A DNA stretch of 42,686 nt from Escherichia phage PGT2. A model generated the notes under the pieces. It had not been told where the DNA came from. It saw only the letters and a list, made by a program, of their open reading frames with translations, and made no database searches. This document shows, piece after piece, positions 7,924 to 21,502 of this stretch (position 1 is the first letter of the stretch; the number at the start of each line of letters is the position of its first letter). The stretch is taken from sequence record NC_047890.1. The stretch is one strand, 5' to 3'. Made by a program: the position numbers and the translations under genes.

Positions 7924-9132
7924 TTGTATTTGTTCGAAGAGAAGACACGCGACCTGATAAAGCTCATGTCACGTTATTTTAAGACTTACAAGGCGGCAGA
8001 CGTCATCCTAAAAGATGACTTCATAACTTGGCTGAATGAACTAAAGGGAGACAAACTAACAGAGTCTGACAGCATACTGTTTCAGGCACTCATGGAAGAT
8101 TTTGAGTATGACCTGTCTGCCGCCGCCGAGCAGTTCCTGACCGAGCGTTTGCAGGAATCCGATTTAGTCTACAAAACCGCAGACCTGATTGAGAAATGGT
8201 CGAACGGTGATGAGATTGAAATCATTGAGCAAATGAAAATCGTCACCGACAAAGCGGCATTTGGCCGTGCTGACCGGGACGGTATTAAAGTAGTCACAGA
8301 GTCGATTGAGGAGATTCTGGAGCACGCCGGGAGCAAGTGGGGATTCGAGTGGTCATTGCCAATATTAGCTAAGGCCATGCGACCCGCACAGCCGGGAGAC
8401 ATGATTCTCATAGCTGCCCGACCGGACCAAGGGAAGACTACATTCATCGGTAACATTGTCCGGCCTTGGCTGGCACAACTGGATGAAATATTCCCCGATG
8501 AAGAACGCTGCATTCTCTGGCTCAATAACGAGGGACCGGGTACTCGTATCAAGCTCCGAAATTACCAATCGGCCCTCGGCCTGACTATCCCAGAAGTGGA
8601 CCAGATGGCTCATACTCGTGGGATGCTGGACGAGGAATACAGGAAGGTGGTAGCCAATGCCGACCGCCTTATTATCCTCGACGTCCACGGCAAGAACACG
8701 GCACAGATTGAGCGGAAGATTGCTGAATTGAAGCCGGGTGTCATTGTCTGGGACATGCTGGATAAGGTGAAGTATGTTACAGAAGACGCTTTTAGGAATA
8801 CACGTACGGATGAGTATCTTGAAGGCTTGTACTCGTGGGTACGAGAATCCGGTGTCATATATGACTGCGTTAACGTCGTATCAACCCAGTTATCCGGTGA
8901 TGCTGAGAACATGCAGTATCCGCACCTCGGAATGCTCAAAGACTCAAAAACGGGCAAACAGGGTACGGCTGATGCCATCATTACGTTCGGGTCGGTTGAC
9001 ACTTACCCCCGTACACGATTCATTGGTCTTACTAAAAATAAGCTCAATATGGGCCGCGCTACGAGTCGCCTAGGCGAAGTCGTATTCGACGGTGCCCGTG
9101 GCTTAATCACTATGCCAGAGGTAGAGAAATGA
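7924..9132 (+). CDS. Replicative DNA helicase (DnaB/T7 gp4 helicase-domain type)
   Basis: Walker A ARPDQGKTT; the frame is closed upstream so the start is TTG 7924 or the internal ATG at 7966. Confidence 0.8.
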   Translation: MYLFEEKTRDLIKLMSRYFKTYKAADVILKDDFITWLNELKGDKLTESDSILFQALMEDFEYDLSAAAEQFLTERLQESDLVYKTADLIEKWSNGDEIEIIEQMKIVTDKAAFGRADRDGIKVVTESIEEILEHAGSKWGFEWSLPILAKAMRPAQPGDMILIAARPDQGKTTFIGNIVRPWLAQLDEIFPDEERCILWLNNEGPGTRIKLRNYQSALGLTIPEVDQMAHTRGMLDEEYRKVVANADRLIILDVHGKNTAQIERKIAELKPGVIVWDMLDKVKYVTEDAFRNTRTDEYLEGLYSWVRESGVIYDCVNVVSTQLSGDAENMQYPHLGMLKDSKTGKQGTADAIITFGSVDTYPRTRFIGLTKNKLNMGRATSRLGEVVFDGARGLITMPEVEK

Positions 9133-9716
9133 TTGATACAGTAGTTTTAACAGCATCCGGCCAATACGTGAATATCCTTGCACCAACCGAGGATGAGATT
9201 GACATCCACGACATTGCTCATGCACTGGCTAATATCAATCGGTTCAACGGTCACACCGCTGTACCCTACACGGTAGCAGAGCACTCATTGCGCTGTTCAG
9301 CCTTGCTTAAGGCGTGGGGATACACTCCCTCATCTCAGTTGGCTGGCCTGCTGCATGATGCTACCGAGGCGTATATCGGCGACGTGGCTACCCCACTCAA
9401 ACAACTGCTGCCAGAGTTCAGAGTCATTGAGAAGAATCTGGAAAAGGTTATTGAGAAGAAGTTCGACATTATCATTAATGACCGTCCAGAAGTCCATTAC
9501 GCAGACCTCCAGCTACTGGCATCCGAACGCAAGTACCTGATGCCGGAAACGCCTGAGTATGTTTGGGAGATTATCGACGGGATTGGCCCGACGACCTACT
9601 CCACAGTGACTGGCAACAATCCTAAGTGGGGTGGTCGGACGCATAAGGAACTGGTCGGCTGGTTCATTAAACGCTTTGAGCAACTTATCAACGAGGTTCA
9701 CAATGTTAAAAATTGA
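9129..9716 (+). CDS. HD-domain phosphohydrolase (5'-deoxynucleotidase-like)
   Basis: HD motifs NINRFNGH...EHS and LLHDATEAYIGD. Confidence 0.65.
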   Translation: MIDTVVLTASGQYVNILAPTEDEIDIHDIAHALANINRFNGHTAVPYTVAEHSLRCSALLKAWGYTPSSQLAGLLHDATEAYIGDVATPLKQLLPEFRVIEKNLEKVIEKKFDIIINDRPEVHYADLQLLASERKYLMPETPEYVWEIIDGIGPTTYSTVTGNNPKWGGRTHKELVGWFIKRFEQLINEVHNVKN

Positions 9717-9996
9717 CCTGACTATCGGCGCATTTAGGATAACCTCTGATGAACACAATTACATTCTGCACCAGTGCAAGCCTAAGACCAAGGGTAAGGA
9801 CGTAGGAACTTTACATTGGGCGGTGATCGGGTACTACAGCAGTCTGGAGCACGTCGCTGGTAATATCGCAAAGTGTGCCGCAGACGGCGTTACCGAAGGC
9901 TTCCCTATCTACCAACTCGACGACCTGAAGAAAGTAGAACGGGCTATCTCAGAGGTAGGCACGGAACTGGTTAAGGCAATACAGGAGAAAGTTTAA
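9703..9996 (+). CDS. Hypothetical protein (97 aa)
   Basis: In-frame ATG at 9703 with SD acgagg at 6-nt spacing; the ORF track starts further upstream (9631) inside the HD gene. Confidence 0.5.
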   Translation: MLKIDLTIGAFRITSDEHNYILHQCKPKTKGKDVGTLHWAVIGYYSSLEHVAGNIAKCAADGVTEGFPIYQLDDLKKVERAISEVGTELVKAIQEKV

Positions 9997-12389
9997 TGTC
10001 CTATGTAACGTTCGATTTGGAGACAACGGTCAAATCCTTGGCTAAACGCAAGGCCAGCCCGTTCCACCCGAACAATTTCATAGTGGCGATTGGTTGGAAA
10101 CGACAAAACTGCTCTGTTCAGGGTAGTTACAGTAAAACGGGCGAGCACCATCCCAATTGGTTCGAAGGTCTTTTGGCAGGTACTAAATTACTTGTCGGCC
10201 AGAATATCAAATTTGACATTCTCTATGCTATAACCCGGTCCGAATCGGCATACGCCGCTTGGATGAACTGGGTAGAGGCCGGAGGAAATGTTTGGGATTG
10301 CCAGCTTGCCGAGTATTTACTGCGAGGTCAGGAACAATCAGCCCACATGTTGTCGATGGATGAGATGGTCGAGGAGTACGGCGGGAACACGAAGGTGGAT
10401 GAAGTCAAAGCCATGTGGGAAGCAGGCTACGATACACCGGAGATTCCTGAAGACTTGCTGATGCGTTATCTCTGCGGTGAGACAAGGGATGATGGTACTC
10501 GCGTGTTCGGCGACATTGAGAACACCGAAGCAATCTTCCTCGGTCAATTGAAGAAGGCACGTAAGCGCGGCCACCTGAAGTCCATCATGCTTAACATGGG
10601 GAGCCTGTTGGCCTCCATAGAGATGGAAAAGAACGGTATGGCCGTTGACCTGAAACTGGGCTTAGAGCAAGCCGAGAAGTTGAAGGTAGCGTGCAACGAA
10701 CTCCGCGAGAAAATGCAGCAGTACCTGCCAAGTGACCTACCGTGTGAGTTTAACTGGGGTTCCGGGCACCACTTATCGGCCCTTATCTTCGGCGGCGCGA
10801 TTAAGTACAAGCAGAAAGCCGAGATTCTGGATGACGAAGGCAACAACGTTTACCCACAGATTAAGGCCGTAGGCTACGAGACAGTAACCGGGGACTTCGT
10901 GGTGCCGGGCCACGGTATCTCTGAAGAGCGTTTTCAGGAGATGGTTGAGGCCGGGAACATTGCCACGTACAAGGCCGGGAAGAAGAAGGGCCAGTTCCGG
11001 TCCAAGCAGGTTAACGTTGATGACCTGTCCCGTCCTAAGACGAAGATAATGGAGTTCCGGTACAACATGCCGGGGTTCACGGAGCCGGACCCGAAGTGGG
11101 AGACGAAGCACGAAGGCGTTTACGCCACTAATGCGGACGTCATTGAGGAATTAGGAACACGCGACGTACCGTTCCTGAAAGACCTCACCAAGCTCAACAA
11201 AATGGATAAAGACCTGACGACATACTATATCTGCGAAGACCCTAAGAAAGAGGGGATGTTCAAAGGTATGTTGACGCTGGTCGGCGATGACGGCATTATC
11301 CACGGCAGCATTAACCACACCTCCACAGTGACCGGGCGATTCTCTGCGAGCAACCCTAACCTCCAGAACATCCCCCGTGCGGACACTTCTGAAGTTAAGA
11401 AGCTGTTCATCTCGCGCTTCGGCGACGACGGCCAGATTATTCAGTCTGACTTCTCGTCTCTGGAGATTTACGTTCAGGCATTACTCACAGGTGACAAGCA
11501 ATTGCTGGCAGACCTGAAGAAAGGTCTGGACATGCACTGCGTTCGCGTCGCCAGTAAATTCGGGGTGCCCTATGAGGAAGCAGTCAAACGTTGTAAGAAG
11601 GATGTTGACGCGCCGGACTACAAGCTATGGAAGTCTCGCAGGACTGGATGTAAGGAATTTTCATTCCAACGAGCATACGGCGCTGGAGCGGCAGCAGTGG
11701 CGAACTCTACGGGGATGTCTATTGAAGACGTGCAGGACCTTATCAAGTTAGAGGACGAACGTTACCCGGAGATTGAACCATTCTATGCAAGAGTTACAGC
11801 AGCAATTAACGAAAGCCGAGTACCAACAAGTCTGTATGTACATCATCCAGAGATACGGGGACTGTCTGTCTGCATCGGCAAAGGATTTTATAGAACGCCT
11901 GATGGGAAGAAATACACTTACCGAGAGTACCCTGCTCCGGCTGGTTTTATCAAACGCGGGGGTGCACACGCCTCCTTCTCGCCTCCTGAAATTAAGAACT
12001 ACATTGTGCAGGGTACAGGTGGCGAGTGGGCGAAAGCTGCGATGTGGCTTGCAGTCCGCACATTCTATCGTTTCAACAACTTCGGAGGAAAGGCGCTCTT
12101 AGTGAATATGGTGCACGATGCGCAATACGTCGATGCTCACAATGACGTGCTGTTCGAAGCCTGCGTAGCGTTACATGCTGCAATGGAAGCGGCCAGCGAG
12201 TTCATGGAGTACCGATTCGATTGGCAGGTCGATGCCCCGGTCCCTTCAGAAACAACCTTTGGCCCAGCGATGTACTACGAGACTGGTGCCGACACCCTGC
12301 CGGGATTCGCCGAAGCAGTGCGTGCTGAACGTCTCAAAATCCGTAAGCTGTACATGAACGACTACCAACCATCATTCGAGGGTAATTAA
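9996..12389 (+). CDS. Family A DNA polymerase with 3'-5' exonuclease domain
   Basis: Exo I motif FDLETT; polymerase motif A DFSSLEIYV, motif B RTGCKEFSFQRAYG, motif C VHDA. Confidence 0.9.
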   Translation: MSYVTFDLETTVKSLAKRKASPFHPNNFIVAIGWKRQNCSVQGSYSKTGEHHPNWFEGLLAGTKLLVGQNIKFDILYAITRSESAYAAWMNWVEAGGNVWDCQLAEYLLRGQEQSAHMLSMDEMVEEYGGNTKVDEVKAMWEAGYDTPEIPEDLLMRYLCGETRDDGTRVFGDIENTEAIFLGQLKKARKRGHLKSIMLNMGSLLASIEMEKNGMAVDLKLGLEQAEKLKVACNELREKMQQYLPSDLPCEFNWGSGHHLSALIFGGAIKYKQKAEILDDEGNNVYPQIKAVGYETVTGDFVVPGHGISEERFQEMVEAGNIATYKAGKKKGQFRSKQVNVDDLSRPKTKIMEFRYNMPGFTEPDPKWETKHEGVYATNADVIEELGTRDVPFLKDLTKLNKMDKDLTTYYICEDPKKEGMFKGMLTLVGDDGIIHGSINHTSTVTGRFSASNPNLQNIPRADTSEVKKLFISRFGDDGQIIQSDFSSLEIYVQALLTGDKQLLADLKKGLDMHCVRVASKFGVPYEEAVKRCKKDVDAPDYKLWKSRRTGCKEFSFQRAYGAGAAAVANSTGMSIEDVQDLIKLEDERYPEIEPFYARVTAAINESRVPTSLYVHHPEIRGLSVCIGKGFYRTPDGKKYTYREYPAPAGFIKRGGAHASFSPPEIKNYIVQGTGGEWAKAAMWLAVRTFYRFNNFGGKALLVNMVHDAQYVDAHNDVLFEACVALHAAMEAASEFMEYRFDWQVDAPVPSETTFGPAMYYETGADTLPGFAEAVRAERLKIRKLYMNDYQPSFEGN

Positions 12390-12391
12390 TA

Positions 12392-13330
12392 ATGGCTAAG
12401 CAATTTTCCGTACTGAAGAAGAAAGAACTGCTCGTAGACCAGACCAAAGCAAGCACTGGTGGTGACTATACGCCGCCAGCGGAAGGTCTGGCCCGTGCCC
12501 GACTCGTCGCCTACGTCGAGGTCGGCAAGCATGAGAAGGTCAGTAAGCAATACGGCACCAAGGTCCAGAGCATGGTGCATCTGACCTTCGAACTGTCCGG
12601 TCCGAAGTGGGAGCCGAAGAAGCTGGATGATGGTACTCTGATTCCGCAGCGTATCACCCTGAAAGAGAACCTGTCCACTAACACCAAGGCGCGATTCTAC
12701 AAGCTGTTCCTGAAGCTCCGCGATGGTCGTGAGGACATTACTCACTTCGCCGAAATGCTGGGTGAAGCCTGCCTCATCCGTATCAAGCACCGTGAGTACG
12801 AGGTGGATGCTGGCGGTAAGAAAGAGAAGCGCGTTGCGGTCGATGTGTACTCTCCAGACAGTGGTTGGTCAATCACTCCTCCGTACATCCTGAAAGATAT
12901 TATGGATGAGAACGACGAACCGACTGGCGAGCAAGAGAAGAAGCACGTCACCGTCTCCGACCCGGTTAGTGACCTCCGCCTGTTCATCTGGGATTGCGCG
13001 GACAAAGAGCAGTGGGACAGCCTGTACATCGAGCCGGGTGACGGCGACCGCAGCAAGAACGTGTTCCAAGAACTGATTGTCAACGCGAAGAACTTTATCG
13101 GTTCCCCGGCTGAAGCAGCGGCACACGGCTCTGAATCTCTGGAGGCCATTCTGAAGGGTGGTAAGGGTTCAACCGAGCCTGCCACTGACGATGACGATGA
13201 TGATGGCTCAGAAGGCGTTGTAGAGGATAAGAGCAGCAAGAAAGCTACCTCTGTTGTGAAGAAGGTCGTTAAGAAGACGGTAGAGGCTGAAAAGCCTGCT
13301 GACGAAGATGACTTAGGGGATATTGACTAA
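12392..13330 (+). CDS. Hypothetical protein with acidic C-terminal tail; possible ssDNA-binding protein (T7 gp2.5-like)
   Basis: C-terminus DDDDDDGSEG...ADEDDLGDID; position between polymerase and exonuclease. No sequence-level match verified. Confidence 0.35.
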   Translation: MAKQFSVLKKKELLVDQTKASTGGDYTPPAEGLARARLVAYVEVGKHEKVSKQYGTKVQSMVHLTFELSGPKWEPKKLDDGTLIPQRITLKENLSTNTKARFYKLFLKLRDGREDITHFAEMLGEACLIRIKHREYEVDAGGKKEKRVAVDVYSPDSGWSITPPYILKDIMDENDEPTGEQEKKHVTVSDPVSDLRLFIWDCADKEQWDSLYIEPGDGDRSKNVFQELIVNAKNFIGSPAEAAAHGSESLEAILKGGKGSTEPATDDDDDDGSEGVVEDKSSKKATSVVKKVVKKTVEAEKPADEDDLGDID

Positions 13331-13331
13331 C

Positions 13332-14282
13332 ATGACAAAGTTCAAGCTGCCTAAAGACCTCAGTTCGATGGTGCAGCCTGAACCTGTTAGCATTGTCCCT
13401 CCCCAAGTTCCGGGGAGGGTCTGCCATGTTGATGCGGACTTCTTAGCTTACTTCGCCGCTGGCGGTGAGAATATGCCTATTAGCATATGCCGCCAAGTGG
13501 TTAAGGAACGCGTCGAGAAGTTCCGCGTCATGACAGGATCAGAATCTGTACTCCTGCACCTGACGGACAGCCGCTCAACAAAAGGCGACAGATACCTCGT
13601 AGGTGCTACCGTACCATATCAGGGTCAACGTCTCTCTGGTAAGAAACCCGGTAACTGGGCGGCTACCCGAGAGTATATCGAATCAGGTACTCATGGCCTC
13701 CCCATGAAGTTCTGGAAGACGAGGGAGGCGGATGATGGGGTCGCATATTGTGCAGAACGCAGTGGTGGGGTTGACGCTATATGCACAAAAGATAAGGACT
13801 TTCGGATGTTCTCCGGGCTGCATTGCTTATGGGATACGTTCCAATTGGTGCAGGTTAATCCCGGTGATTTTCGTGTGGATGGTCCTGCTCCTGCCAAGGG
13901 CAAAGTACAGAAGTATTACGGCCACTTCTTCTTCTGGCAGCAGATGTTGTACGGAGATACTGCGGATAACATCCCCGGTATACATGGGATTGGCGAGGCC
14001 ACTGCCGCCCAACTTCTGCTTGATTGTACTAATAACGCCGAAGCATTCGATGTTGTCGCTGATATTTACAGGAAAAAGAAACGGGAGGGGTGGTCTGATT
14101 ATATGGTTGAGCAGGCTGCGCTTCTATGGATGCGAACTGACCGACACGCAGACCTGCTGGATTTCCTCAAGATATTCCCGGAAGATGAGGAAATTATCAT
14201 TGCTGCGGAGAAGATGAGGCAGCGGGTTCTCGAAGATAAGGCTACCTTAGAGAGCATACTCAAAGGTTACTCACATAAATAG
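13332..14282 (+). CDS. 5'-3' exonuclease / flap endonuclease (T7 gp6-like)
   Basis: H3TH-type motif GDTADNIPGIHGIGEATAAQLL; ORF track start 13323 is a TTG, ATG at 13332 has better SD spacing. Confidence 0.8.
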   Translation: MTKFKLPKDLSSMVQPEPVSIVPPQVPGRVCHVDADFLAYFAAGGENMPISICRQVVKERVEKFRVMTGSESVLLHLTDSRSTKGDRYLVGATVPYQGQRLSGKKPGNWAATREYIESGTHGLPMKFWKTREADDGVAYCAERSGGVDAICTKDKDFRMFSGLHCLWDTFQLVQVNPGDFRVDGPAPAKGKVQKYYGHFFFWQQMLYGDTADNIPGIHGIGEATAAQLLLDCTNNAEAFDVVADIYRKKKREGWSDYMVEQAALLWMRTDRHADLLDFLKIFPEDEEIIIAAEKMRQRVLEDKATLESILKGYSHK

Positions 14283-14295
14283 AGGGTATTCCGTG

Positions 14296-14775
14296 ATGAT
14301 GAAATTAACCCAATCCCTAATTCCCGTAGTAAGACGCAAGATGGCAGCAGAGCAAGGGAACCTGTGCCTATTATGCAGGGAACATATGGAAGATAAGCAA
14401 ATGGTGCTGGACCACGACCATGATACAGGCCACTGTCGCGGGGTTCTCCACAGAGGCTGTAATGCCATGCTCGGACATCTGGAAAACAACCGTGCCCGTC
14501 ACCTGCTGAAAGACGACGACAAGTTCGCTACGTTCCTCTCGAACATCATGGAATACATCAACATGGACTGCTCGCACCAGCCACTGCACAGCACTCATAA
14601 GAACACTGCGGAGAAGAAAGCGGCATCTTATGAGAAGTCCCGGAAGAAGTTAGTAGCTTCCCGGATTGCAGCCAACCCAACCGCCGCCGACGCTATCAAA
14701 GCGAAGGAAAAAGCATTGCGTAAAGTACGCGCCGACCGTAACCGTCCATCTGTTAAATCAAGCAAAGACATTTGA
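14296..14775 (+). CDS. Recombination endonuclease VII (Holliday junction resolvase)
   Basis: Zinc/catalytic motif CLLCREH...LDHDHDTGHCRGVLHRGCN, typical of T4 endo VII family. Confidence 0.8.
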   Translation: MMKLTQSLIPVVRRKMAAEQGNLCLLCREHMEDKQMVLDHDHDTGHCRGVLHRGCNAMLGHLENNRARHLLKDDDKFATFLSNIMEYINMDCSHQPLHSTHKNTAEKKAASYEKSRKKLVASRIAANPTAADAIKAKEKALRKVRADRNRPSVKSSKDI

Positions 14776-14782
14776 GGATATT

Positions 14783-15772
14783 ATGCCAAAGACTAATCTC
14801 ATTGCACTATTCACCAAGGAACAGCACCAGAACATCCTCGGCAAGCACCCCGACAACACGGCTGCTGCCAAGGCGTACAACGAACTGCTGGGCTGGAATA
14901 GTCCGGTAGTCTACCGCCAAGTGGTGGCGTACTGGCGCAAGATTTATATCGACCACGGTGGTAAGAAAGGCGAGGCTATTCGTGAAGAGAAACAAGCTGT
15001 TAAGCTGGTTCAGCCATCACCAAGTGACGATATTGGTAACACTGACGTCCCTGACGTGTGTCGCCGTATCCTTGTGGTTGGTGATTTACATGCTCCTTAT
15101 ACTCATCCCGACGCTATTGCTTTCCTTCGCCATGTCCGAGACAGTTATGTTCCTGACATGGTTGTTCAGGTAGGCGATGAGACGGACGGCCACGCAATCA
15201 GCTTCCACGACTCGGACCCGAATCTGGATAGCGCCGGGGTCGAATTAGAGAAAGCCAAAGCCGTACTGGAGCAATTACATGACCTGTTCCCGAACCTTCT
15301 GGTATGTGACTCCAATCACGGCAGTCTTGTGTATCGCCGCGCAAAGGCTCACGGTCTACCAGTGCAATTTATCAAGAAGTACCGTGATATTCTTTTCCCT
15401 GAGCACGGTGCTAAGAAGTGGTCATGGGCTGACGCATGGGTACTCAATACCCCGCTTGGCCAAGTTCGATTCCAACATCAAGTGTCGGGCGACTTCATGC
15501 TTAACGCCAGCCATGAGAGAACCTCGCTTGTCTTGGGTCACGAGCATGGTCGCTTTGAAGTGCAGTACGCAGCAAGCTCAACAGCTTTGTACTTTGGTGC
15601 ATACGCTGGGTGTCTGATTGACCGTAAGTCTCTGGCCTTTGCCTACGGCAAGTTGCACCGCAAGAAACCAATCCTCGGCGTGATGGTAATCACCGATGGT
15701 TGTCCGCAGTTAATCCCTATGCTGATGGATGAAAACGGGAGGTGGTGTGCGCGAGATAAAACCAAAGGTTGA
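14783..15772 (+). CDS. Calcineurin-like metallophosphoesterase
   Basis: Motifs VVGDLHAPY, VQVGDETDGH, CDSNHG, GHEH; in-frame ATG 14783 with upstream SD (ORF track start 14666 overlaps the endo VII gene). Confidence 0.65.
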   Translation: MPKTNLIALFTKEQHQNILGKHPDNTAAAKAYNELLGWNSPVVYRQVVAYWRKIYIDHGGKKGEAIREEKQAVKLVQPSPSDDIGNTDVPDVCRRILVVGDLHAPYTHPDAIAFLRHVRDSYVPDMVVQVGDETDGHAISFHDSDPNLDSAGVELEKAKAVLEQLHDLFPNLLVCDSNHGSLVYRRAKAHGLPVQFIKKYRDILFPEHGAKKWSWADAWVLNTPLGQVRFQHQVSGDFMLNASHERTSLVLGHEHGRFEVQYAASSTALYFGAYAGCLIDRKSLAFAYGKLHRKKPILGVMVITDGCPQLIPMLMDENGRWCARDKTKG

Positions 15773-15794
15773 TACAGGGAAGAGATTCCGGGGT

Positions 15795-16292
15795 ATGGTG
15801 GTGTACACTTGGGACTGCCCTTACTGTGGTAGAGAGTTTGAGGCTATACGGACTAAGCTCTTCAATACAAGTAAGCGAGGTGGTGCAGGGCATTGTGGGT
15901 GTCAGACTAAGGTTCGACAGTCACAAAGAAATGCAGGGCGTACACCGCCTAATAAGCTGGACGATTTGACAGCCTCCGCTAACAAGGTGTGGCAGTACAG
16001 TACCAAACTAGGCCGGAGCATTACTAAAGAGGATGCCAAAGCCTTAGTAAGTGCAAACTGTTACTACTGCGGGGCAGCGCCCAGCACCTACCGAGAGATT
16101 GGTGGAGGTCGCTGGTCGCGCAAGTCCGAAATACCCACAAACGGAATCGACAGAAAGGATTCATCTGTAGGTTATCACGTACATAATTGTGTACCTTGCT
16201 GCCCTACGTGCAACTACATGAAGTCCGATATGCACCACGACGACTTCTTGGAGTTGTGTAGTAAAATAGCCGACCGTTGGGCCGGTCGCTAA
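15795..16292 (+). CDS. HNH endonuclease (second free-standing copy)
   Basis: N-terminal CPYCG zinc motif and C-terminal HVHNCVPCCPTCNYMKSD HNH motif; start could also be ATG 15729. Confidence 0.65.
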   Translation: MVVYTWDCPYCGREFEAIRTKLFNTSKRGGAGHCGCQTKVRQSQRNAGRTPPNKLDDLTASANKVWQYSTKLGRSITKEDAKALVSANCYYCGAAPSTYREIGGGRWSRKSEIPTNGIDRKDSSVGYHVHNCVPCCPTCNYMKSDMHHDDFLELCSKIADRWAGR

Positions 16293-16332
16293 TTATACCG
16301 GGCACGGACGCCCATTCAATTGAGGATAATAT

Positions 16333-17052
16333 ATGTTGTTAATGCTCTCTGGCGCGATTGGCGCTGGCAAAGATACCTTCGGTGAGTTCCTGTACGACTC
16401 ATTCGACAAGTTCGGCTACAGCGTGGAAGTGGTGAAGTTTGCCGACCCCATTCGTGAAGCTGCATTTAAGCTCGGATTCAATCCAGATGACCGGGCAACC
16501 AAGGAAGTCCCTGCAATACGCCATTATAAACTCTCAGAACTTGATGAGGCCATTTTTACTACTCATACCTGCCTGACACCTTACGAGCGCCGAATGGTCG
16601 CTGTACGAGTTCACCAGAGATTAATTAACATTCGCAAGGAGAAACATGATGGCATCTACAAGCCTGTCGTCAGTACGCGAGAATTTATGCAGGTCGTCGG
16701 TGGGACTGTACGAGACGCTAAAGAAGATTATTACATCCAGCACATGCTTCTCAATACACCAGAATCACGCGTTAACATCTGCACTGATACTCGGTTCATC
16801 AACGAGCAGCGAATTGGGGATTATTCGGTCTACGTTGAGCGCCCAAACAACCCGTTGGCGGTTCATACCCGCGACGCGTCGGAAGCAGCACAAGCGTTGC
16901 TCCGGGGGGCGGCGAAGAAAGTAATCCTGAACAACAGCACTCTGGATAATCTGGCTGAAGAAGCCGATTACGTGGCTACAACATTAATTTCAAAAGGGTA
17001 TTGTGATGACGCAGTTAAAGACGCAGGCGGAACTGGAATCTTTATCGAGTGA
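16333..17052 (+). CDS. P-loop deoxynucleoside monophosphate kinase-like protein
   Basis: N-terminal P-loop MLLMLSGAIGAGKDT resembles T4 dNMP kinase MKLIFLSGVKRSGKDT; strong SD tgagga. Confidence 0.6.
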   Translation: MLLMLSGAIGAGKDTFGEFLYDSFDKFGYSVEVVKFADPIREAAFKLGFNPDDRATKEVPAIRHYKLSELDEAIFTTHTCLTPYERRMVAVRVHQRLINIRKEKHDGIYKPVVSTREFMQVVGGTVRDAKEDYYIQHMLLNTPESRVNICTDTRFINEQRIGDYSVYVERPNNPLAVHTRDASEAAQALLRGAAKKVILNNSTLDNLAEEADYVATTLISKGYCDDAVKDAGGTGIFIE

Positions 17053-18976
17053 GCGCGGTCTTGCCAAGCTGATGGCCGAGTGTGAGCAGGCTGAATCAGC
17101 GGGGCGTGCATCCGGCGCGTTTTATGCCAAGCAGTTGTTAGAGCGTTTTGTTAACCGTATGGCCGAACGTATTGACCACGAGATGGCGAATCCGGGTGCT
17201 GGCCGCGCGAAAGCGCATAAGAAACTGGTCGCTGTGTTTGACTCCAAAGTCACTGCGTTTATTTCTGTATCAACCACATTGAACATGCTGATGGTCAACG
17301 AGCAGACACCGGGCACCAGCCTTAGTCGCGCCCTCGGCAATGCAATGTATAACGAACTGTTCTGTACCACATTCGACGATGCCAACCCGGACCTGTTTCA
17401 CACCATCTGCAAGGACTTGGATAAGCGCCAGAGCAAATCCAGCCGCCACCGCATGACGGTACTGAAGAATCAGGCAGCGAAGAAGGGTATCGCGTGGGAG
17501 AACTGGACCGTCACCGAAATCCTTCAGGTCGGTGAGTGGTGTCTGGATAATCTGGTGTCAGTTGGTCTGTGCGAAACGCATACCGAGGTGTCTCGCGGTA
17601 AGGCGAAGATGTACGTGGAACTGTCCGACGAGGCGCTGGGAATGATTGAGGATACCAAACGTCTGGTGTCCTTCTTCCGGCCCCAGCGCCTCCCGTTCGT
17701 AGAGAAGCCTCTGGACTGGACCGGGATTGTTGGTGGTGGCTACCATACTGCTCGTATGCAGAGTACGATGCCTCGTTGCATCAAAGCCAGCCCGACCCAG
17801 ATGGATGTACTCATAAAGCACCGTGACGACTACAAGGATACGGTGGTGGCGTGCATTAACACTCTGCAATCGGTAGAGTGGCGTATCAACAAGCGTATTC
17901 TGGAAGTGCAGCAGCAGATGTTCCGAGGCTTTGAGCCGAAGAACAAGCCTGATGCTCTGGAGTGTCATAGCAAGGACGTTGAAGAGTGGACCGAGGCAGA
18001 TAAATCTCTACACAGCCACTGGAAGAAGGAAATGGCTCGCTGGTACACAGAGCAGCGTGCAGAGCGTTATGCCGCTTCACGACATGCCTACACGTTGTCA
18101 GTGGCACGAGAGTTCGCTGACTACCCGCGTATCTGGTTCATGTACTTCGCCGACTGGCGCGGGCGTTATTACCCGGCCACCACAGGCATCTCGCCGCAGG
18201 GGACCGACATCTCTAAATCCATGCTGGAGTTCGCCAATGGCAAGCCCATCTCTGACCCAATCGCAGAACAGTTCTTCTTCCTCCTTGGTTCAACTAAATT
18301 CGGATTCGACAAAGGCTCTATATCCGAACGAGTTCAGTGGGTTCACAAGAATCACGACCTTATCTTGGCGTGTGCCGACGAACCGCTACTACATACTGAT
18401 TTCTGGTACAGAGAAGCAGATAAGAAGACCCGCTACCAATTTCTGGCATGGTGTTTTGAATATGCTGAATACACGCGGTTCCCAGCTGGATTTGTATCAC
18501 GACTTCCGGTGTCTCTTGATGGCACATGTAATGGCCTACAACACTATTCGGCGATGCTACGAGATTCGGTTGGTGCTAAGGCTACCAACCTGTTACCTGC
18601 TAACCGACCAAACGATATTTACGCGCAAGTCGCAGGCGTTGTCACCAACCTTCTTGAAAGCATGTCACCTGCCGACTTCCCGGCACTGACACGCGAATCT
18701 AAGCCTCTCAGCGTCTATGAGGTGGACTTCTTCCGTAGGGCATGGTTACACCACGGTATCAGCCGTAGCCTCGTTAAACGGTGCGTTATGACGTTACCTT
18801 ACGGGTCCAAGAAGTTCAGCATGGGTCGCTTCATCAAAGGCGACTACATGATGGACATTCACCCGGAAGAGTTCGACACCGACGACTACACCGACGCAAA
18901 GTATGTTCCCGCCAGACCAGAGTTCGGTGACCTCGATTTAGAGCAGGTCAATCACTCCGAATACTTCTTCCTGTAG
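17006..18976 (+). CDS. T7-like single-subunit RNA polymerase, apparently lacking the C-terminal ~190 aa (motif C and C-terminus)
   Basis: PLDWTGIVGGGY, DWRGRYY...PQGTD, FLAWCFEYA, LDGTCNGLQHYSAMLRD (motif A) and VMTLPYGSKKF (motif B) align with T7 RNAP; the ORF stops about 50 residues after motif B. Confidence 0.85.
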   Translation: MTQLKTQAELESLSSERGLAKLMAECEQAESAGRASGAFYAKQLLERFVNRMAERIDHEMANPGAGRAKAHKKLVAVFDSKVTAFISVSTTLNMLMVNEQTPGTSLSRALGNAMYNELFCTTFDDANPDLFHTICKDLDKRQSKSSRHRMTVLKNQAAKKGIAWENWTVTEILQVGEWCLDNLVSVGLCETHTEVSRGKAKMYVELSDEALGMIEDTKRLVSFFRPQRLPFVEKPLDWTGIVGGGYHTARMQSTMPRCIKASPTQMDVLIKHRDDYKDTVVACINTLQSVEWRINKRILEVQQQMFRGFEPKNKPDALECHSKDVEEWTEADKSLHSHWKKEMARWYTEQRAERYAASRHAYTLSVAREFADYPRIWFMYFADWRGRYYPATTGISPQGTDISKSMLEFANGKPISDPIAEQFFFLLGSTKFGFDKGSISERVQWVHKNHDLILACADEPLLHTDFWYREADKKTRYQFLAWCFEYAEYTRFPAGFVSRLPVSLDGTCNGLQHYSAMLRDSVGAKATNLLPANRPNDIYAQVAGVVTNLLESMSPADFPALTRESKPLSVYEVDFFRRAWLHHGISRSLVKRCVMTLPYGSKKFSMGRFIKGDYMMDIHPEEFDTDDYTDAKYVPARPEFGDLDLEQVNHSEYFFL

Positions 18977-19062
18977 TACCCGGCCAAGGATGGCTACCTT
19001 CCCTCTCTATTTCGTCACCTACAATAGCACACAATACCCTCAAACTGTTCTTCTTGAACACT

Positions 19063-19095
19063 AGCCTTGGCCTCTTTGGTCAGGGCTATTTTTTC
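19063..19095 (+). terminator. Rho-independent terminator downstream of the RNA polymerase ORF
   Basis: 10-bp stem agccttggcc / ggtcagggct (two G-U pairs), loop tcttt, then attttttc. Confidence 0.65.
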
Positions 19096-19139
19096 TGATT
19101 TAGGGTATTTGTTAAATATGGCTTGAAGCCTTGATATAT

Positions 19140-19169
19140 GGGGTTTCCGCACATTATTTTAATAAGGGG
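19140..19169 (+). promoter_or_regulatory. Conserved 28-bp element GGGGTTTCCGCACATTAYTTTA(A)TAAGRG; candidate phage promoter or other regulatory site
   Basis: Near-identical copies at 173-200 and 42599-42626 (inside the terminal repeats); first 17 nt identical, then 1 mismatch and 1 indel. Confidence 0.4.
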
Positions 19170-19509
19170 TCCGGAGGGTGTTAAAATGTTCCTTAAATTT
19201 TACTTTGGTTAATTTCTAAGTTAAGCGAAAGCCAACTTAGTAAGGTAAGAGATTATTACCGGATTAGTGGTCCATACCGTAGTGAGTTAGAAAGACTACA
19301 TTCCCGGATTAGTGAGTTAGAGGGTGCTCTTTCCTCCTCAGAGTCTGTACCAGAACCTGTTACAGAAATATTCAGTAGAATGAACTATGAGGTGTACGAA
19401 TACTTTGAGCGTACAGTAAGTAATACTTCTGTAGCTAGTTCTACTACTGATTTAGAAGCTGGGTTTAAATTAGGTGTCCAGCATGTTCTCGCCAAGTTGA
19501 GGAATGGGT

Positions 19510-19938
19510 ATGTCACACCGCGAAGTCTCTGATTCTGATTGGGTAGCTAGTGTTCCTAAGTTGGTTGAGGCTATTTGCAACTCACCCAGCAGGATGATAT
19601 GTGATATTGACGTAGAGGCTACTCTGGCTCATTTTATGGCCGTAGCCACTCGTGGTGGTGCGTATATTGTCAAGGAGAAGTATCTGGTCGTATTCGACCG
19701 CTACAAGCTCTGGTATGCACCTACCAAGGATATTATCGAAGAGAAGATTGTCCTGTGTATTTACCCAGAAAATCCCGGCTCAATGTTCGATGTTGTCCGA
19801 TTTCTAATTGAACAACGTGATTACCTTGAAGCGAATCACTTGGTCATAGGTGACTTCCTGCACACTAATCAGGAAAAGTATGGTCGAGTCCTAACTAAAT
19901 TAGGGTTGACCAAAATCAACTCAGTTTACGCATGTTAG
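19510..19938 (+). CDS. Hypothetical protein (143 aa) in a compositionally atypical region
   Basis: SD gagga 6 nt before ATG 19510 (ATG 19504 is too close to the SD); no recognisable motif; region is more AT-rich than neighbours. Confidence 0.5.
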   Translation: MSHREVSDSDWVASVPKLVEAICNSPSRMICDIDVEATLAHFMAVATRGGAYIVKEKYLVVFDRYKLWYAPTKDIIEEKIVLCIYPENPGSMFDVVRFLIEQRDYLEANHLVIGDFLHTNQEKYGRVLTKLGLTKINSVYAC

Positions 19939-19948
19939 GAGGTTCCCA

Positions 19949-20551
19949 ATGGGAGGCTTACTCGGTGGCGGCGATAACGGTAAATCTCAAGCAAAGGCTA
20001 CCCGTGAAGCTGCCGAACGTCAGGCACAGGCAACATTGCAGGCCGCACGGGAGCAGATAGAGGCTCAGAACCGTCAGGCGGCTGCACAGCAACAATGGTC
20101 CAGTCAACAGGCCGCGCAACAGCGTGAGTTTGAGGCCCAGCTAAATCAGACCAATCAAGAATACCAATCAACCCTACAGGCACAACAGCTTGCTCAGCAG
20201 AAAGCACTCACTGAACAGACTAACGCCATTAACAAGGCGTATCAGGACAAGATGGCTAGTCTGCAACAGCAGGCCAACGAACAGCAGCAGTTTGAGTACA
20301 CCCAGCAGCTTTTACAGTCTTCCGCAGACGCACAGCGCCAGCAGGCACTGAAGGAAGCGCAGGATGCTACTTGGATGCCGCAGGAACAGGTTGAGGTTAC
20401 TCTGGCCGCAGATAGCTCTACGTATCTGGACGAGCAACGTCGTAGACGTCCCGTGAGCAACCTATACAATGGTGCAGGCAACGTGAACACGGCTTCGGCG
20501 AATGGGCAGTCTACGAGTGGCACAGGGCTTTCTAGTGGATTGAGGATTTAA
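19949..20551 (+). CDS. Gln/Ala-rich coiled-coil protein (200 aa), probable virion or assembly protein
   Basis: Strong SD aggagg; low-complexity Q/A-rich sequence; first gene of the structural block. Confidence 0.55.
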   Translation: MGGLLGGGDNGKSQAKATREAAERQAQATLQAAREQIEAQNRQAAAQQQWSSQQAAQQREFEAQLNQTNQEYQSTLQAQQLAQQKALTEQTNAINKAYQDKMASLQQQANEQQQFEYTQQLLQSSADAQRQQALKEAQDATWMPQEQVEVTLAADSSTYLDEQRRRRPVSNLYNGAGNVNTASANGQSTSGTGLSSGLRI

Positions 20552-20552
20552 T

Positions 20553-21491
20553 ATGACCGATGATGAAGCTCGCCAACTTGCTCAATGGGGCGAGGATGAA
20601 ATTGCCCGGATACTCGGACTGAACAGAAACTCATATTTGTCGGCACAGGGTCAGTCAGTAGCGGATTGGTCCAGCCGCTGGTCTTCCGGTCTAAATGACA
20701 TTTCTGGATATTATGACCAAGGTAAGGCTAACTCCCTGTACGCATCCCTTGGTGGGACTACATCGTCCACGTACCTTAACCAGTTGTCGATGCTGGCAGA
20801 GGAATCCAACAAGCTCTACACCTTAATTAATAACCCTAACGCAGTACACTCCAAGCTCCGGGAAGAGGCCGGGAGGCAAGGCGGTGTCGCGCAGTTCTCT
20901 ATCGGTATGGGTTATCGTACTGAAGGTAACGGTGGTTACGTTTACGACCTGATGGGCAACAGATTCAACGACATAACGATGAGTCCGCTGTACAAATCCT
21001 TGTATAGCATGGTTGATAGTTTTAGCAATCAGCAGGGTAAAATCGTCAATGAGTTGAACGCACAGCAGGGCCGTGAGCAGAACTATATCAGTCAGATTAG
21101 TGGTTTATTGCAGCAGGGTACGTTAGCAAAGACCAAAGCTGAACAGGAAGCTCAGAGGAAGGCGCTTGAAGAGCAGTATGCACAGCAACAGGAAGAATTG
21201 AACAAACAGGCTGCAGAGAATGCACGTATCCTCAAGGAGAAGCAGGAAGCTCAGACCAAGATGTTCAACGAGTCCGCTAAGGTTACGGCGGAATCCAACG
21301 CAGCGACATCCCAGCTTCAACAGGCCAAATCTGCTGCCACTCAGGTAGCCAATGTAGGTTCAGCCCGTGGTGGTGAGGCAATATCCTCAACCAACGCAGC
21401 CGCTAAATCAAAGACCAGACAAACCACGCGTACTGAACGCTGGCAGTCAACCCGCTCCCCAGCCGCTGGCGGTGGCGGCATCAACGTTTAA
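20553..21491 (+). CDS. Hypothetical virion-associated protein (312 aa) with Q/E-rich coiled-coil segment
   Basis: SD gagga; coiled-coil-like segment KTKAEQEAQRKALEEQYAQQQEELNKQAAE; immediately upstream of portal. Confidence 0.55.
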   Translation: MTDDEARQLAQWGEDEIARILGLNRNSYLSAQGQSVADWSSRWSSGLNDISGYYDQGKANSLYASLGGTTSSTYLNQLSMLAEESNKLYTLINNPNAVHSKLREEAGRQGGVAQFSIGMGYRTEGNGGYVYDLMGNRFNDITMSPLYKSLYSMVDSFSNQQGKIVNELNAQQGREQNYISQISGLLQQGTLAKTKAEQEAQRKALEEQYAQQQEELNKQAAENARILKEKQEAQTKMFNESAKVTAESNAATSQLQQAKSAATQVANVGSARGGEAISSTNAAAKSKTRQTTRTERWQSTRSPAAGGGGINV

Positions 21492-21502
21492 CAGGAGCTA
21501 TC

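What the first reader, a model, noticed from the sequence alone, without database searches (positions are those of the whole stretch)
14783..17052. Nucleotide-metabolism genes: metallophosphoesterase and dNMP kinase next to the RNAP gene
A calcineurin-like phosphoesterase and a T4-gp1-like dNMP kinase P-loop, together with the HD hydrolase at 9129, form an unusually rich nucleotide-handling set for a ~42-kb podophage. This might indicate salvage, dNTP pool reshaping or nucleotide-based defense evasion.
Basis: partly seen in the sequence, partly recalled or inferred. Interest (0 to 1): 0.4.

Follow-up and report, generated by a model that had tools for sequence, protein, structure and literature searches.

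The report
Standard phage nuclease–kinase block, plus hitchhiker

Summary
The window is a 94-96% relative of Escherichia phage phiKT (Autographiviridae, Ermolevavirus). The interval 14783-17052 holds three genes, not two.

- **14783-15772:** a calcineurin-fold metallophosphoesterase (MPE).
- **15729-16292:** an HNH/EndoVII-type endonuclease, carried on a 542-bp insertion that phiKT lacks.
- **16333-17052:** a T4-gp1-type dNMP kinase.
- **9129-9716:** the HD protein, which is YfbR/YfdR-like.

phiKT already annotates the same trio. The order exonuclease, endonuclease VII, MPE, dNMP kinase, RNA polymerase recurs in Acinetobacter Friunavirus and Burkholderia phage Paku. The set is therefore not unusual.

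The MPE belongs to PHROG 221 together with mycobacteriophage Bxb1 gp47. Its closest solved folds are the PolD DP1 proofreading exonuclease, SbcD and Mre11. Published work on gp47 and its relatives reports nuclease activity and a requirement for phage DNA replication. It most likely acts on DNA, not on the nucleotide pool.

The best model is a nuclease block that releases dNMPs and a kinase that recycles them. The HNH gene behaves like a free-standing homing endonuclease aimed at the 3' end of the MPE gene. Interest is low.

In passing: the RNA polymerase gene has a 167-codon in-frame deletion that removes catalytic motif C.

The parts
14783..15772 (+). Metallophosphoesterase, 329 aa. It has an N-terminal five-helix domain (about residues 1-75) and a calcineurin-fold catalytic domain (about residues 94-323). 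It belongs to PHROG 221, the Bxb1 gp47 family.
15729..16292 (+). Free-standing HNH/EndoVII-type (His-Me finger) endonuclease, 187 aa, with an N-terminal CxxC zinc ribbon. Candidate homing endonuclease. Its start overlaps the last 44 nt of the MPE gene.
   Evidence: PHROG 1035 at 2e-25; PHROG 2214 and 3118 'HNH' at 6e-6 and 2e-5. No significant Pfam hit. Copies 86-92% identical in protein sit at the same spot in about 11 Drulisvirus and E. coli phage genomes and in metagenome contig L005.
15733..16275 (.). A 542-bp insertion relative to phiKT. It carries the HNH gene and a replacement 3' end for the MPE gene (...GRWCARDKTKG*). The original MPE tail (RWxGR*) now ends the HNH ORF.
   Evidence: blastn of window against phiKT. 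Junction alignment. C-terminal tails of 120 MPE homologues: HNH-linked alleles end ...GRWCARDKTKG/D, the others ...GRWVGR(KK/SK).
15250..15650 (.). Divergent tract in the 3' half of the MPE gene, upstream of the HNH insertion. Candidate co-conversion tract.
   Evidence: Identity to phiKT is 76-85% here, against a regional median of 97% and 100% at 14960-15230. The tract is closer to HNH-bearing L005 (87-96%) and to Drulisvirus VLCpiA1j (78-90%).
16333..17052 (+). T4-gp1-type deoxynucleoside monophosphate kinase, 239 aa. P-loop G7-AIGAGKDT15. It overlaps the RNA polymerase start by 47 nt.
   Evidence: PHROG 139 at 2.4e-26. Pfam DNMK 25.1 bits, below the 27.1 cutoff. Profile against 1DEK at 1.5e-6, covering both the P-loop and the C-terminal half. 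AlphaFold2 pLDDT 89. Foldseek top hit 1DEK.
9129..9716 (+). HD-domain phosphohydrolase, YfbR/YfdR-like, a predicted 5'-deoxynucleotidase, 195 aa.
   Evidence: Pfam PF12917 at 31.7 bits (cutoff 25.9) and PHROG 318 at 1.5e-66. PDB 2GZ4 at 6.6e-14 and YfbR 2PAQ at 0.017, with the HDxxExxxGD motif aligned. 35% identical to lambdoid-prophage YfdR-type proteins.
13323..14282 (+). 5'-3' exonuclease (context: first gene of the nuclease block).
   Evidence: Pfam 5_3_exonuc at 8.5e-9. phiKT gp08 annotation.
14293..14775 (+). Recombination endonuclease VII (context: second gene of the nuclease block).
   Evidence: Pfam Endonuclease_7 at 4e-15 and PHROG 423 at 2.4e-39.
17006..18976 (+). Single-subunit RNA polymerase gene, 656 aa from ATG 17006. 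It carries an in-frame 167-codon deletion relative to phiKT; the junction is at 18897|18899.
   Evidence: blastn and protein alignment. Pfam RNA_pol matches only profile positions 16-183 of 448, and PHROG 414 only 1-624 of 816.

Best explanation
The interval is the tail of the conserved DNA-metabolism (middle) gene block of a phiKT-like Autographiviridae phage: 5'-3' exonuclease, endonuclease VII, metallophosphoesterase, [HNH insert], dNMP kinase, RNA polymerase.

(1) The metallophosphoesterase is a catalytically intact member of the Bxb1-gp47 family (PHROG 221). It most likely acts on DNA as a Mn/Mg-dependent nuclease. It would take part in phage DNA replication or processing, in host-chromosome breakdown, or in both. 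It does not appear to be an enzyme of the free-nucleotide pool.

(2) The T4-gp1-type kinase phosphorylates the 5'-dNMPs that the nuclease block releases from host DNA. The resulting dNDPs are converted by host NDP kinase to dNTPs for the phage polymerase. This is salvage, analogous to the nucleotide kinases of T4, T5 and T7.

(3) The HD protein upstream is a YfbR/YfdR-type 5'-deoxynucleotidase. It trims or balances dNMPs.

(4) The 187-aa HNH gene is a free-standing homing endonuclease. It has inserted into the last codons of the MPE gene, brought a substitute MPE C-terminus with it, and probably dragged in a flanking tract of foreign MPE sequence.

What is shown here: the gene coordinates, family and fold assignments, intact motifs, synteny, the insertion polymorphism and the sequence mosaicism. 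What is inferred: the MPE substrate, the kinase specificity, the flow from nucleases to kinase, and homing activity.
For: **Identity and synteny.** The window is 94-96% identical to phiKT, which carries the same annotated genes. The order exonuclease, endoVII, MPE, dNMP kinase, RNAP is seen in Friunavirus Ab11. Burkholderia phage Paku has it too, with MazG between MPE and kinase and ligase after the kinase, and its MPE slot holds a PHROG 284 'exonuclease' MPE.

**Kinase.** 1DEK is the best match by profile and by fold. Invariant residues: GxxxxGKDT, S114, R116, Q120, D152, R154, E158, R170.

**HNH.** It is absent from phiKT. It is present at the same site in about 11 Drulisvirus or E. coli phages and in contig L005, out of 641 MPE-bearing genomes. 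C-terminal tails are allele-specific. A divergent tract lies next to it.

Against: The phage DNA polymerase seems to carry its own ExoI (DxE) motif. This is read from the sequence 'FDLETT' and is an inference. If correct, a dedicated editing exonuclease is not obviously needed.

The exonuclease activity reported for Bxb1 gp47 was weak, and the authors could not rule out contamination.

The kinase misses Pfam's gathering score by 2 bits.

An HD 5'-nucleotidase works against salvage, and nothing here resolves that conflict.

Low-identity patches between the window and phiKT also occur away from any HNH gene (13350-14000, 16650-16900). The 100 nt immediately upstream of the insertion are 99% phiKT-like. 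The link between the divergent tract and homing is therefore suggestive, not proven. Pfam does not recognise the HNH ORF.
Confidence: 0.7

Rival explanations
1. MPE, dNMP kinase and HD hydrolase form a dedicated nucleotide-pool module. It reshapes dNTP pools or counters nucleotide-based defences, for example dNTP-depletion systems or defences triggered by dNMPs released from degraded host DNA.
For: All three have phosphoryl-transfer or hydrolase chemistry compatible with nucleotides. The generic nucleotide phosphodiesterases MJ0936 and YfcE are near the top of the MPE fold list. Literature context: an E. coli PUA-Calcineurin-HAD defence is triggered by m6-dAMP from phage-induced chromosome degradation and depletes dNTPs (bioRxiv 10.64898/2026.01.15.699771). 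A phage dNMP phosphatase or kinase could in principle remove that trigger or refill the pool.
Against: The genes are not clustered as a unit: the HD gene lies 5 kb from the other two. The MPE's family and best folds point to DNA nucleases. The set is the ordinary core of this phage group, not an accessory acquisition. There are no hits to defence-related profiles. The cited preprint reports DNA-mimic proteins, not nucleotide enzymes, as the counter-defence.
Confidence: 0.12
2. The MPE is a phosphoprotein phosphatase or small-molecule phosphodiesterase (λ-PPase-like, Ap4A hydrolase, cyclic-nucleotide phosphodiesterase) that rewires host signalling, and it is unrelated to DNA.
Against: These hits rank below DP1, SbcD and Mre11. 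The gene sits among replication and nuclease genes in every genus examined. Characterised members of the same PHROG act on DNA or are needed for replication.
Confidence: 0.13
3. The 187-aa HNH protein is not selfish. It is a working partner of the MPE or the replication machinery, for example an accessory repair or packaging nuclease.
For: It is always found next to the MPE gene and overlaps it translationally. HNH proteins assist terminases in some phages (general knowledge).
Against: It is absent from the 94-96% identical phiKT and from about 98% of MPE-bearing phage genomes. It is shared between different genera at 86-92% protein identity, while their flanking N-terminal MPE sequence is only about 50-70% identical at the nucleotide level. 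It carries a duplicated, recoded copy of the insertion site. This is the pattern expected of a mobile homing-endonuclease gene.
Confidence: 0.08
4. The HD protein acts mainly like prophage YfdR. It would bind DnaA to shut down host replication initiation rather than hydrolyse dNMPs.
For: It is 35% identical to YfdR-type proteins of lambdoid phages. YfdR binds DnaA, and its nucleotide affinities are reported as much lower than YfbR's (PMC4776307).
Against: The HD metal and catalytic motif (H...HDxxE...D) is intact, and the best Pfam family is the 5'-deoxynucleotidase one. No DnaA-binding determinant was tested.
Confidence: 0.1

Closest known systems
Escherichia phage phiKT (NC_019520) gp03, gp10 and gp11
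   Same: Same genes in the same order. Proteins are 99.5% (HD), 97% (MPE) and 91% (dNMP kinase) identical. They are already annotated as dNMP phosphatase, metallo-phosphoesterase and dNMP kinase.
   Different: phiKT has no HNH gene between the MPE and the kinase. It has a different HNH (gp06) after the DNA polymerase, which the window lacks. Its RNA polymerase is full length at 823 aa.
Mycobacteriophage Bxb1 gp47 / A10ZJ24 gp48 (PHROG 221 metallophosphoesterases)
   Same: Same PHROG family. hhalign 96.9% over the whole catalytic domain. Same top structural neighbours, DP1 and Mre11. Located among replication and endonuclease VII genes.
   Different: Only about 21% identical. The window protein has an extra N-terminal helical domain of about 90 aa. 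Bxb1 gp47 has Q in place of the motif-I His and moonlights as an integrase directionality factor, which is irrelevant in this lytic phage. Nuclease activity has not been tested for any Autographiviridae member.
Phage T4 gp1 deoxynucleoside monophosphate kinase (PDB 1DEK; Pfam PF21448)
   Same: Best solved relative by profile and by fold. Shared P-loop SGxxxxGKDT and C-terminal DxR...E / RP / ND..L motifs.
   Different: About 18% identity. The Pfam score is just under the cutoff. T4 gp1 is tuned to hmdCMP, dGMP and dTMP in a phage with modified DNA (general knowledge). None of the ORFs annotated here is a base-modification enzyme. Substrate range is unknown.
E. coli YfbR and prophage YfdR HD-domain 5'-deoxynucleotidases
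   Same: Pfam YfbR-like above the cutoff, with the HD motif aligned. 35% identity to YfdR-type phage proteins.
   Different: Closest solved structure is the uncharacterised Atu1052 (2GZ4). Activity is untested. YfdR itself has an unclear function.
Free-standing HNH homing endonucleases of T-odd/T7-like and T4-like phages
   Same: A small His-Me-finger ORF inserted at a gene boundary of a conserved DNA-metabolism gene. Sporadic among close relatives, shared across genera, with a recoded target site and a divergent flanking tract.
   Different: Not recognised by Pfam HNH. Cleavage site and homing are untested. The divergent tract is not contiguous with the insertion point.

Membership tests
Calcineurin-like metallophosphoesterase superfamily (PF00149) | Five metal-binding motifs: DxH, GD, GNH, H, GHxH | tested here: met
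   D101-x-H103, G131-D132, N178-H179, H232 and G252-H253-x-H255 are invariant or ≥90% conserved in 109 homologues. Pfam 24.4 bits, cutoff 21.5.
Calcineurin-like metallophosphoesterase superfamily (PF00149) | Four-layer α/β/β/α sandwich fold | tested here: met
Bxb1 gp47-type phage MPE (PHROG 221) | Full-length profile membership and homology across the catalytic domain | tested here: met
   The window MPE scores 2e-107 and Bxb1 gp47 scores 4.5e-116 against PHROG 221. hhalign 96.9%, E 1.7e-10, 200 columns.
Bxb1 gp47-type phage MPE (PHROG 221) | Nuclease activity and requirement for phage DNA replication | not testable with these tools
   Known only from the literature for the mycobacteriophage members.
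PolD DP1 / Mre11 / SbcD nuclease MPEs | Accessory DNA- or partner-binding domains (OB fold in DP1; capping domain in Mre11/SbcD) | tested here: not met
T4 gp1 dNMP kinase family (PF21448 DNMK) | Pfam gathering threshold | tested here: not met
   25.1 bits against a 27.1 cutoff for the single sequence. However, 8 of its 11 homologues carry a precomputed PF21448 hit.
T4 gp1 dNMP kinase family (PF21448 DNMK) | P-loop GxxxxGK[DT] plus a family-specific C-terminal half, with the gp1 fold as nearest neighbour | tested here: met
   The profile matches 1DEK over residues 1-42 and 113-210 at E 1.5e-6. Foldseek rank 1 is 1DEK at 1.2e-7. Invariant residues are listed.
T4 gp1 dNMP kinase family (PF21448 DNMK) | ATP-dependent phosphorylation of dNMPs; substrate range | not testable with these tools
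YfbR-like HD 5'-deoxynucleotidase (PF12917) | Pfam threshold and the H...HD...D metal motif | tested here: met
   31.7 bits, cutoff 25.9. H52, H76-D77 and E80 align with Atu1052, Lin2634 and YfbR.
Free-standing HNH homing endonuclease | His-Me finger (HNH) catalytic domain | tested here: inconclusive
   PHROG 1035 'endonuclease VII' at 2e-25 and HNH PHROGs at 6e-6 and 2e-5. Pfam HNH gives only 7.1 bits. Catalytic residues were not verified.
Free-standing HNH homing endonuclease | Presence/absence polymorphism among near-identical genomes, with the same insertion site across lineages | tested here: met
   Absent in phiKT and L006. Present at the MPE 3' end in the window, in L005 and in about 11 Drulisvirus or E. 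coli phages.
Free-standing HNH homing endonuclease | Co-conversion of flanking markers | tested here: inconclusive
   A divergent tract at 15250-15650 is closer to HNH-bearing genomes. Similar patches exist elsewhere, and the 100 nt next to the insertion are phiKT-like.
Free-standing HNH homing endonuclease | Site-specific cleavage of the endonuclease-free allele and super-Mendelian inheritance | not testable with these tools
   Requires biochemistry and mixed infections.

The most novel reading that the evidence does not exclude
The conserved pairing of a nuclease block (exonuclease, endonuclease VII, gp47-type MPE) with a dNMP kinase and an HD 5'-deoxynucleotidase may be more than salvage. 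It could be a way of controlling which dNMPs accumulate when the host chromosome is destroyed. One example would be removing Dam-methylated m6-dAMP or other 'danger' mononucleotides that trigger dNTP-depleting abortive-infection systems, while keeping the canonical dNMPs for phage DNA synthesis.
Probability: 0.06. Interest if true: 0.55.

Novelty: already known. Interest (0 to 1): 0.15.

Why it matters
The finding matters little as originally posed. The gene trio is the annotated, conserved equipment of phiKT-like phages, and the MPE–kinase pair is common in other Autographiviridae.

Two points are useful for annotation. First, the widespread 'metallo-phosphoesterase' of KP34-, phiKT-, SP6- and Friunavirus-type therapeutic phages belongs to the family of Bxb1 gp47. 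It should be treated as a candidate replication or host-DNA nuclease, not as a nucleotide-pool enzyme or a 'protein phosphatase 2a-like' protein. Second, the MPE gene is a recurrent target of selfish elements: an HNH gene at its 3' end here, and an intein-like insert at motif II in a Proteus phage. This creates mosaic alleles across genera and can mislead phylogeny.

The truncated RNA polymerase and a homopolymer frameshift suggest this sequence should be checked before anyone treats it as a viable genome.

Tried and rejected
- **PDB sequence searches with the MPE.** Neither the single sequence nor the 109-sequence profile found anything meaningful. Fold comparison was needed instead.
- **Curated libraries.** NCBIfam gave only sub-threshold hits (YfcE family 15 bits; APS kinase). 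PADLOC gave nothing relevant.
- **AlphaFold-database fold library.** Not available.
- **Pfam on the HNH ORF and the MPE N-terminal domain.** Nothing significant, so the N-terminal domain stays unassigned. Only the Friunavirus homologue shows faint HTH or sigma-like PHROG hits.
- **Promoter, terminator and repeat scans over 14000-19600.** Results were at chance level, apart from the expected terminator after the RNA polymerase gene and a shared ribosome-binding context.
- **BLASTP against a T4 gp1 sequence.** The 1DEK alignments are the evidence.
- **Kinase as APS kinase or dephospho-CoA kinase.** Rejected. Those match only the P-loop third, whereas T4 gp1 matches both halves.
- **RNA polymerase difference as an insertion or intein in phiKT.** Rejected. 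The missing segment contains polymerase motif C and aligns to the conserved family profile.
- **Missing RNA polymerase DNA moved elsewhere in the window.** It is not there.
Full report
**What the window is.** Megablast of 14000-19600 finds Escherichia phage phiKT (NC_019520; Autographiviridae, Ermolevavirus; 42,608 bp) at 94% identity. A blastn of window 8001-22000 against phiKT gives four collinear blocks at 90-96% identity. The phiKT record annotates, in order: primase, helicase, 'deoxyribonucleoside 5' monophosphate phosphatase' (gp03), DNA polymerase, an HNH (gp06), gp07, 5'-3' exonuclease, endonuclease VII, 'metallo-phosphoesterase' (gp10), 'dNMP kinase' (gp11) and RNA polymerase.

**Checking the observation.**
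- ORF 14783-15772 (329 aa) passes Pfam Metallophos (24.4 bits, cutoff 21.5) and matches PHROG 221 at 2e-107.
- ORF 16333-17052 (239 aa) matches PHROG 139 'deoxynucleoside monophosphate kinase' at 2.4e-26. Its Pfam DNMK score is 25.1 bits, just under the 27.1 cutoff.
- ORF 9129-9716 passes Pfam YfbR-like (31.7 bits, cutoff 25.9) and matches PHROG 318 at 1.5e-66. It also matches the HD protein Atu1052 (PDB 2GZ4) at 6.6e-14, with the HDxxExxxGD motif aligned.

The coordinates and domain calls are correct. ORF 15729-16292 (187 aa) matches PHROG 1035 'endonuclease VII' at 2e-25 and two HNH PHROGs. It lies on a 542-bp segment (15733-16275) that has no counterpart in phiKT.

**Is the set unusual?** It is not.
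- The MPE has 2,026 close homologues in the 5.8-billion-protein search and 1,628 clusters at 50% identity.
- It occurs in 641 deposited phage genomes, almost all podophages of about 40-45 kb infecting Klebsiella, Escherichia, Pectobacterium, Pseudomonas, Aeromonas, Vibrio and Proteus.
- The kinase is rarer: 11 close homologues and 83 phage records. Those records are again about 40-44-kb podophages of Acinetobacter (Friunavirus), Ralstonia, Burkholderia and Achromobacter.
- In Friunavirus Ab11 the order is exonuclease, nucleotidyltransferase, endonuclease VII, MPE, dNMP kinase, RNA polymerase.
- In Burkholderia phage Paku it is exonuclease, endonuclease VII, metallo-phosphohydrolase, MazG, dNMP kinase, ligase, RNA polymerase.

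This is a conserved block, not an unusual accumulation.

**What the metallophosphoesterase is.**
- An alignment of 109 diverse homologues shows every metal-binding motif invariant or nearly so: D101, H103, D132, N178, H179, H232, H253, H255. The enzyme is presumably active.
- The conserved unit is the C-terminal domain of about 230 aa. Many homologues are about 235 aa and lack the N-terminal extension.
- The AlphaFold2 model is confident (pLDDT 93). It shows five N-terminal helices, a low-confidence linker, and then the MPE core.
- The literature search turned up two papers on mycobacteriophage MPEs. I therefore fetched Bxb1 gp47. hhalign of my family alignment against it gives 96.9% probability and E 1.7e-10 over 200 columns spanning the whole catalytic domain. 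Bxb1 gp47 scores 4.5e-116 against PHROG 221, the same family as the window protein and the Friunavirus MPE.
- According to PMC12287305, the cluster-A homologue A10ZJ24 gp48 is a phosphodiesterase that degrades linear, plasmid and genomic DNA in vitro and host DNA in vivo, dependent on the MPE motifs.
- In Paku, the syntenic slot is filled by a different MPE that belongs to PHROG 284 'exonuclease'.

Taken together, DNA is the more probable substrate. I put this at about 60%. The generic phosphodiesterases MJ0936 and YfcE score almost as well as DP1. The phage polymerase also appears to have its own ExoI motif ('FDLETT' at its N-terminus; this is my inference).

**The kinase.**
- A profile of the 12-member family finds T4 dNMP kinase (1DEK) as the best solved relative at E 1.5e-6. 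The match covers both the P-loop (SGxxxxGKDT) and the C-terminal half (S/T-x-R…Q…G, D-T/S-R…E, R-P, N-D/N-x-x-L). APS, dephospho-CoA and adenylate kinases match only the P-loop segment.
- The model (pLDDT 89) again has 1DEK as its top Foldseek hit (1.2e-7).
- Family-invariant residues include G7, G10, G12, K13, D14, T15, S114, R116, Q120, D152, R154, E158 and R170.
- Substrate range cannot be determined here.
- From general knowledge, T4 gp1, the T5 dNMP kinase and T7 gp1.7 all feed dNMPs from degraded host DNA back into dNTP synthesis. The position of this gene directly after three nuclease-type genes fits that role.

**The HD protein.** It is a YfbR/YfdR-type enzyme. It is 35% identical to the YfdR-type proteins of lambdoid phages. 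The YfdR paper notes an HD fold, much lower nucleotide affinities than YfbR, and DnaA binding. A 5'-deoxynucleotidase would run against salvage. I cannot resolve whether it balances pools, removes particular dNMPs or acts on host replication.

**The missed gene.**
- tblastn finds copies of the 187-aa protein at 86-92% identity in only about 11 deposited genomes (Klebsiella Drulisvirus phages and E. coli phage ZX6). In each case the copy overlaps the 3' end of the MPE gene.
- A metagenomic Ermolevavirus-like contig (L005) has endonuclease VII, a 329-aa MPE, a 187-aa ORF, a 52-aa ORF, the dNMP kinase and the RNA polymerase. Another relative (L006) and phiKT lack the ORF.
- MPE alleles linked to the HNH gene end in …GRWCARDKTKG/D. 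HNH-less alleles end in …GRWVGR(KK/SK).
- At the junctions, the window's MPE switches from phiKT-like to Drulisvirus-like sequence at about 15727. The HNH ORF itself ends …DRWAGR*, followed by the phiKT intergenic sequence. The element therefore sits inside the last MPE codons, supplies a recoded replacement tail, and leaves the old tail fused to its own 3' end.
- Upstream, the window is 100% identical to phiKT at 14960-15230. Identity falls to 76-85% at 15250-15650, where the window is closer to L005 (87-96%) and to VLCpiA1j (78-90%).

This is what co-conversion during homing would produce, with three caveats. The 100 nt immediately next to the insertion are again 99% phiKT-like. Similar low-identity patches occur elsewhere: 13350-14000, 16650-16900, and 12100-12300 next to the site where phiKT has its own gp06 HNH. 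Pfam does not recognise the ORF as HNH. I rate 'free-standing homing endonuclease' at about 70%.

**Mechanistic summary.** Steps marked (i) are inferred.
- Middle-gene expression yields the 5'-3' exonuclease, endonuclease VII and the gp47-type MPE.
- These process replication and recombination intermediates and degrade host DNA to 5'-dNMPs (i).
- The gp1-type kinase converts the dNMPs to dNDPs (i).
- Host NDP kinase completes dNTP synthesis (i, general knowledge).
- The HD nucleotidase modulates the dNMP pool (i).
- The HNH gene is a passenger that spreads by cutting HNH-less MPE alleles in mixed infections (i).

**Comparison and novelty.** Everything fits known kinds: Bxb1 gp47-type MPE, T4 gp1-type kinase, YfbR/YfdR-type HD hydrolase, and free-standing HNH homing endonuclease. 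The trio is already annotated in phiKT. The new items are minor: an HNH insertion shared between Ermolevavirus and Drulisvirus, and the link from the Autographiviridae 'metallo-phosphoesterase' to the gp47 nuclease literature. PHROG 221 already implies that link.

**Other observations.**
- *RNA polymerase.* The gene (17006-18976) lacks 167 codons in frame relative to phiKT. The missing segment runs from ANFLG… to …AQAIS and includes 'MIHDDYGTH', the motif-C aspartate region. There is no junction microhomology, and the missing DNA is not elsewhere in the window. As written, the polymerase should be inactive.
- *gp13 homologue.* The gene (19138-19532) is frameshifted by loss of one T in a T5 run. 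Both defects could be sequencing or assembly errors.
- *Intein-like insert.* In Proteus phage RS1pmA the MPE is 637 aa. A roughly 300-aa insert follows 'GDE', begins with Cys, ends in Asn followed by Cys, and contains a LAGLIDADG-like 'LAVAFQADG'. This looks like an intein in motif II, although Pfam gave no intein hit.

Noticed in passing
window 17006-18976 (junction 18897|18899): The RNA polymerase gene has a clean in-frame 167-codon (501-bp) deletion relative to phiKT. It removes motif C ('MIHDDYGTH') and the region where the specificity loop would lie. There is no microhomology at the junction, and the missing DNA is not elsewhere in the window. As encoded, the polymerase should be inactive. 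It is either a defective genome or an assembly artefact.
   Followed up: yes
window 19138-19532 (indel near 19198): The homologue of phiKT gp13 is frameshifted by loss of one T in a T5 homopolymer (AAATTTTTAC becomes AAATTTTAC). This is probably a sequencing error or a pseudogene.
   Followed up: yes
window 12296-12392 and 12100-12300: phiKT carries an HNH endonuclease gene (gp06) right after the DNA polymerase, and the window lacks it. The adjacent 3' end of the polymerase gene is a low-identity patch (61-84%). This is a second HNH presence/absence polymorphism with a divergent flank.
   Followed up: partly
L008 1501-3414 (Proteus phage vB_PmiP_RS1pmA; also Pseudomonas phage PA28): The MPE gene is 637 aa here. 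An in-frame insert of about 300 aa follows 'GDE' (motif II). It starts with Cys, ends ...SGN|C, and contains a LAGLIDADG-like 'LAVAFQADG'. It looks like an intein, but Pfam gives no intein hit.
   Followed up: partly
L006 6565-7191 and 7660-8001 (metagenomic phiKT relative): This relative has an extra 208-aa ORF with a weak Gad2 Pfam hit between the exonuclease and endonuclease VII, and a 113-aa ORF before the MPE. Both are absent from the window and from phiKT.
   Followed up: no
window 13350-14000, 14700-14850, 16650-16900, 20600-20850: These are discrete patches of 67-87% identity to phiKT against a background of 97%. They lie in the exonuclease gene, the endoVII/MPE boundary, the dNMP kinase gene and a late gene. 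They indicate frequent patchwise recombination not tied to any visible homing endonuclease.
   Followed up: partly
window 14769-14784 and 16317-16332: The MPE and the dNMP kinase are preceded by the same translation-initiation context, CA(T/A)TTGAGGATA(T/A)TATG.
   Followed up: no
window 19062-19088: A strong intrinsic-terminator-like hairpin (11-bp stem followed by a T run) lies just downstream of the RNA polymerase gene. It probably marks the boundary between middle and late genes.
   Followed up: no
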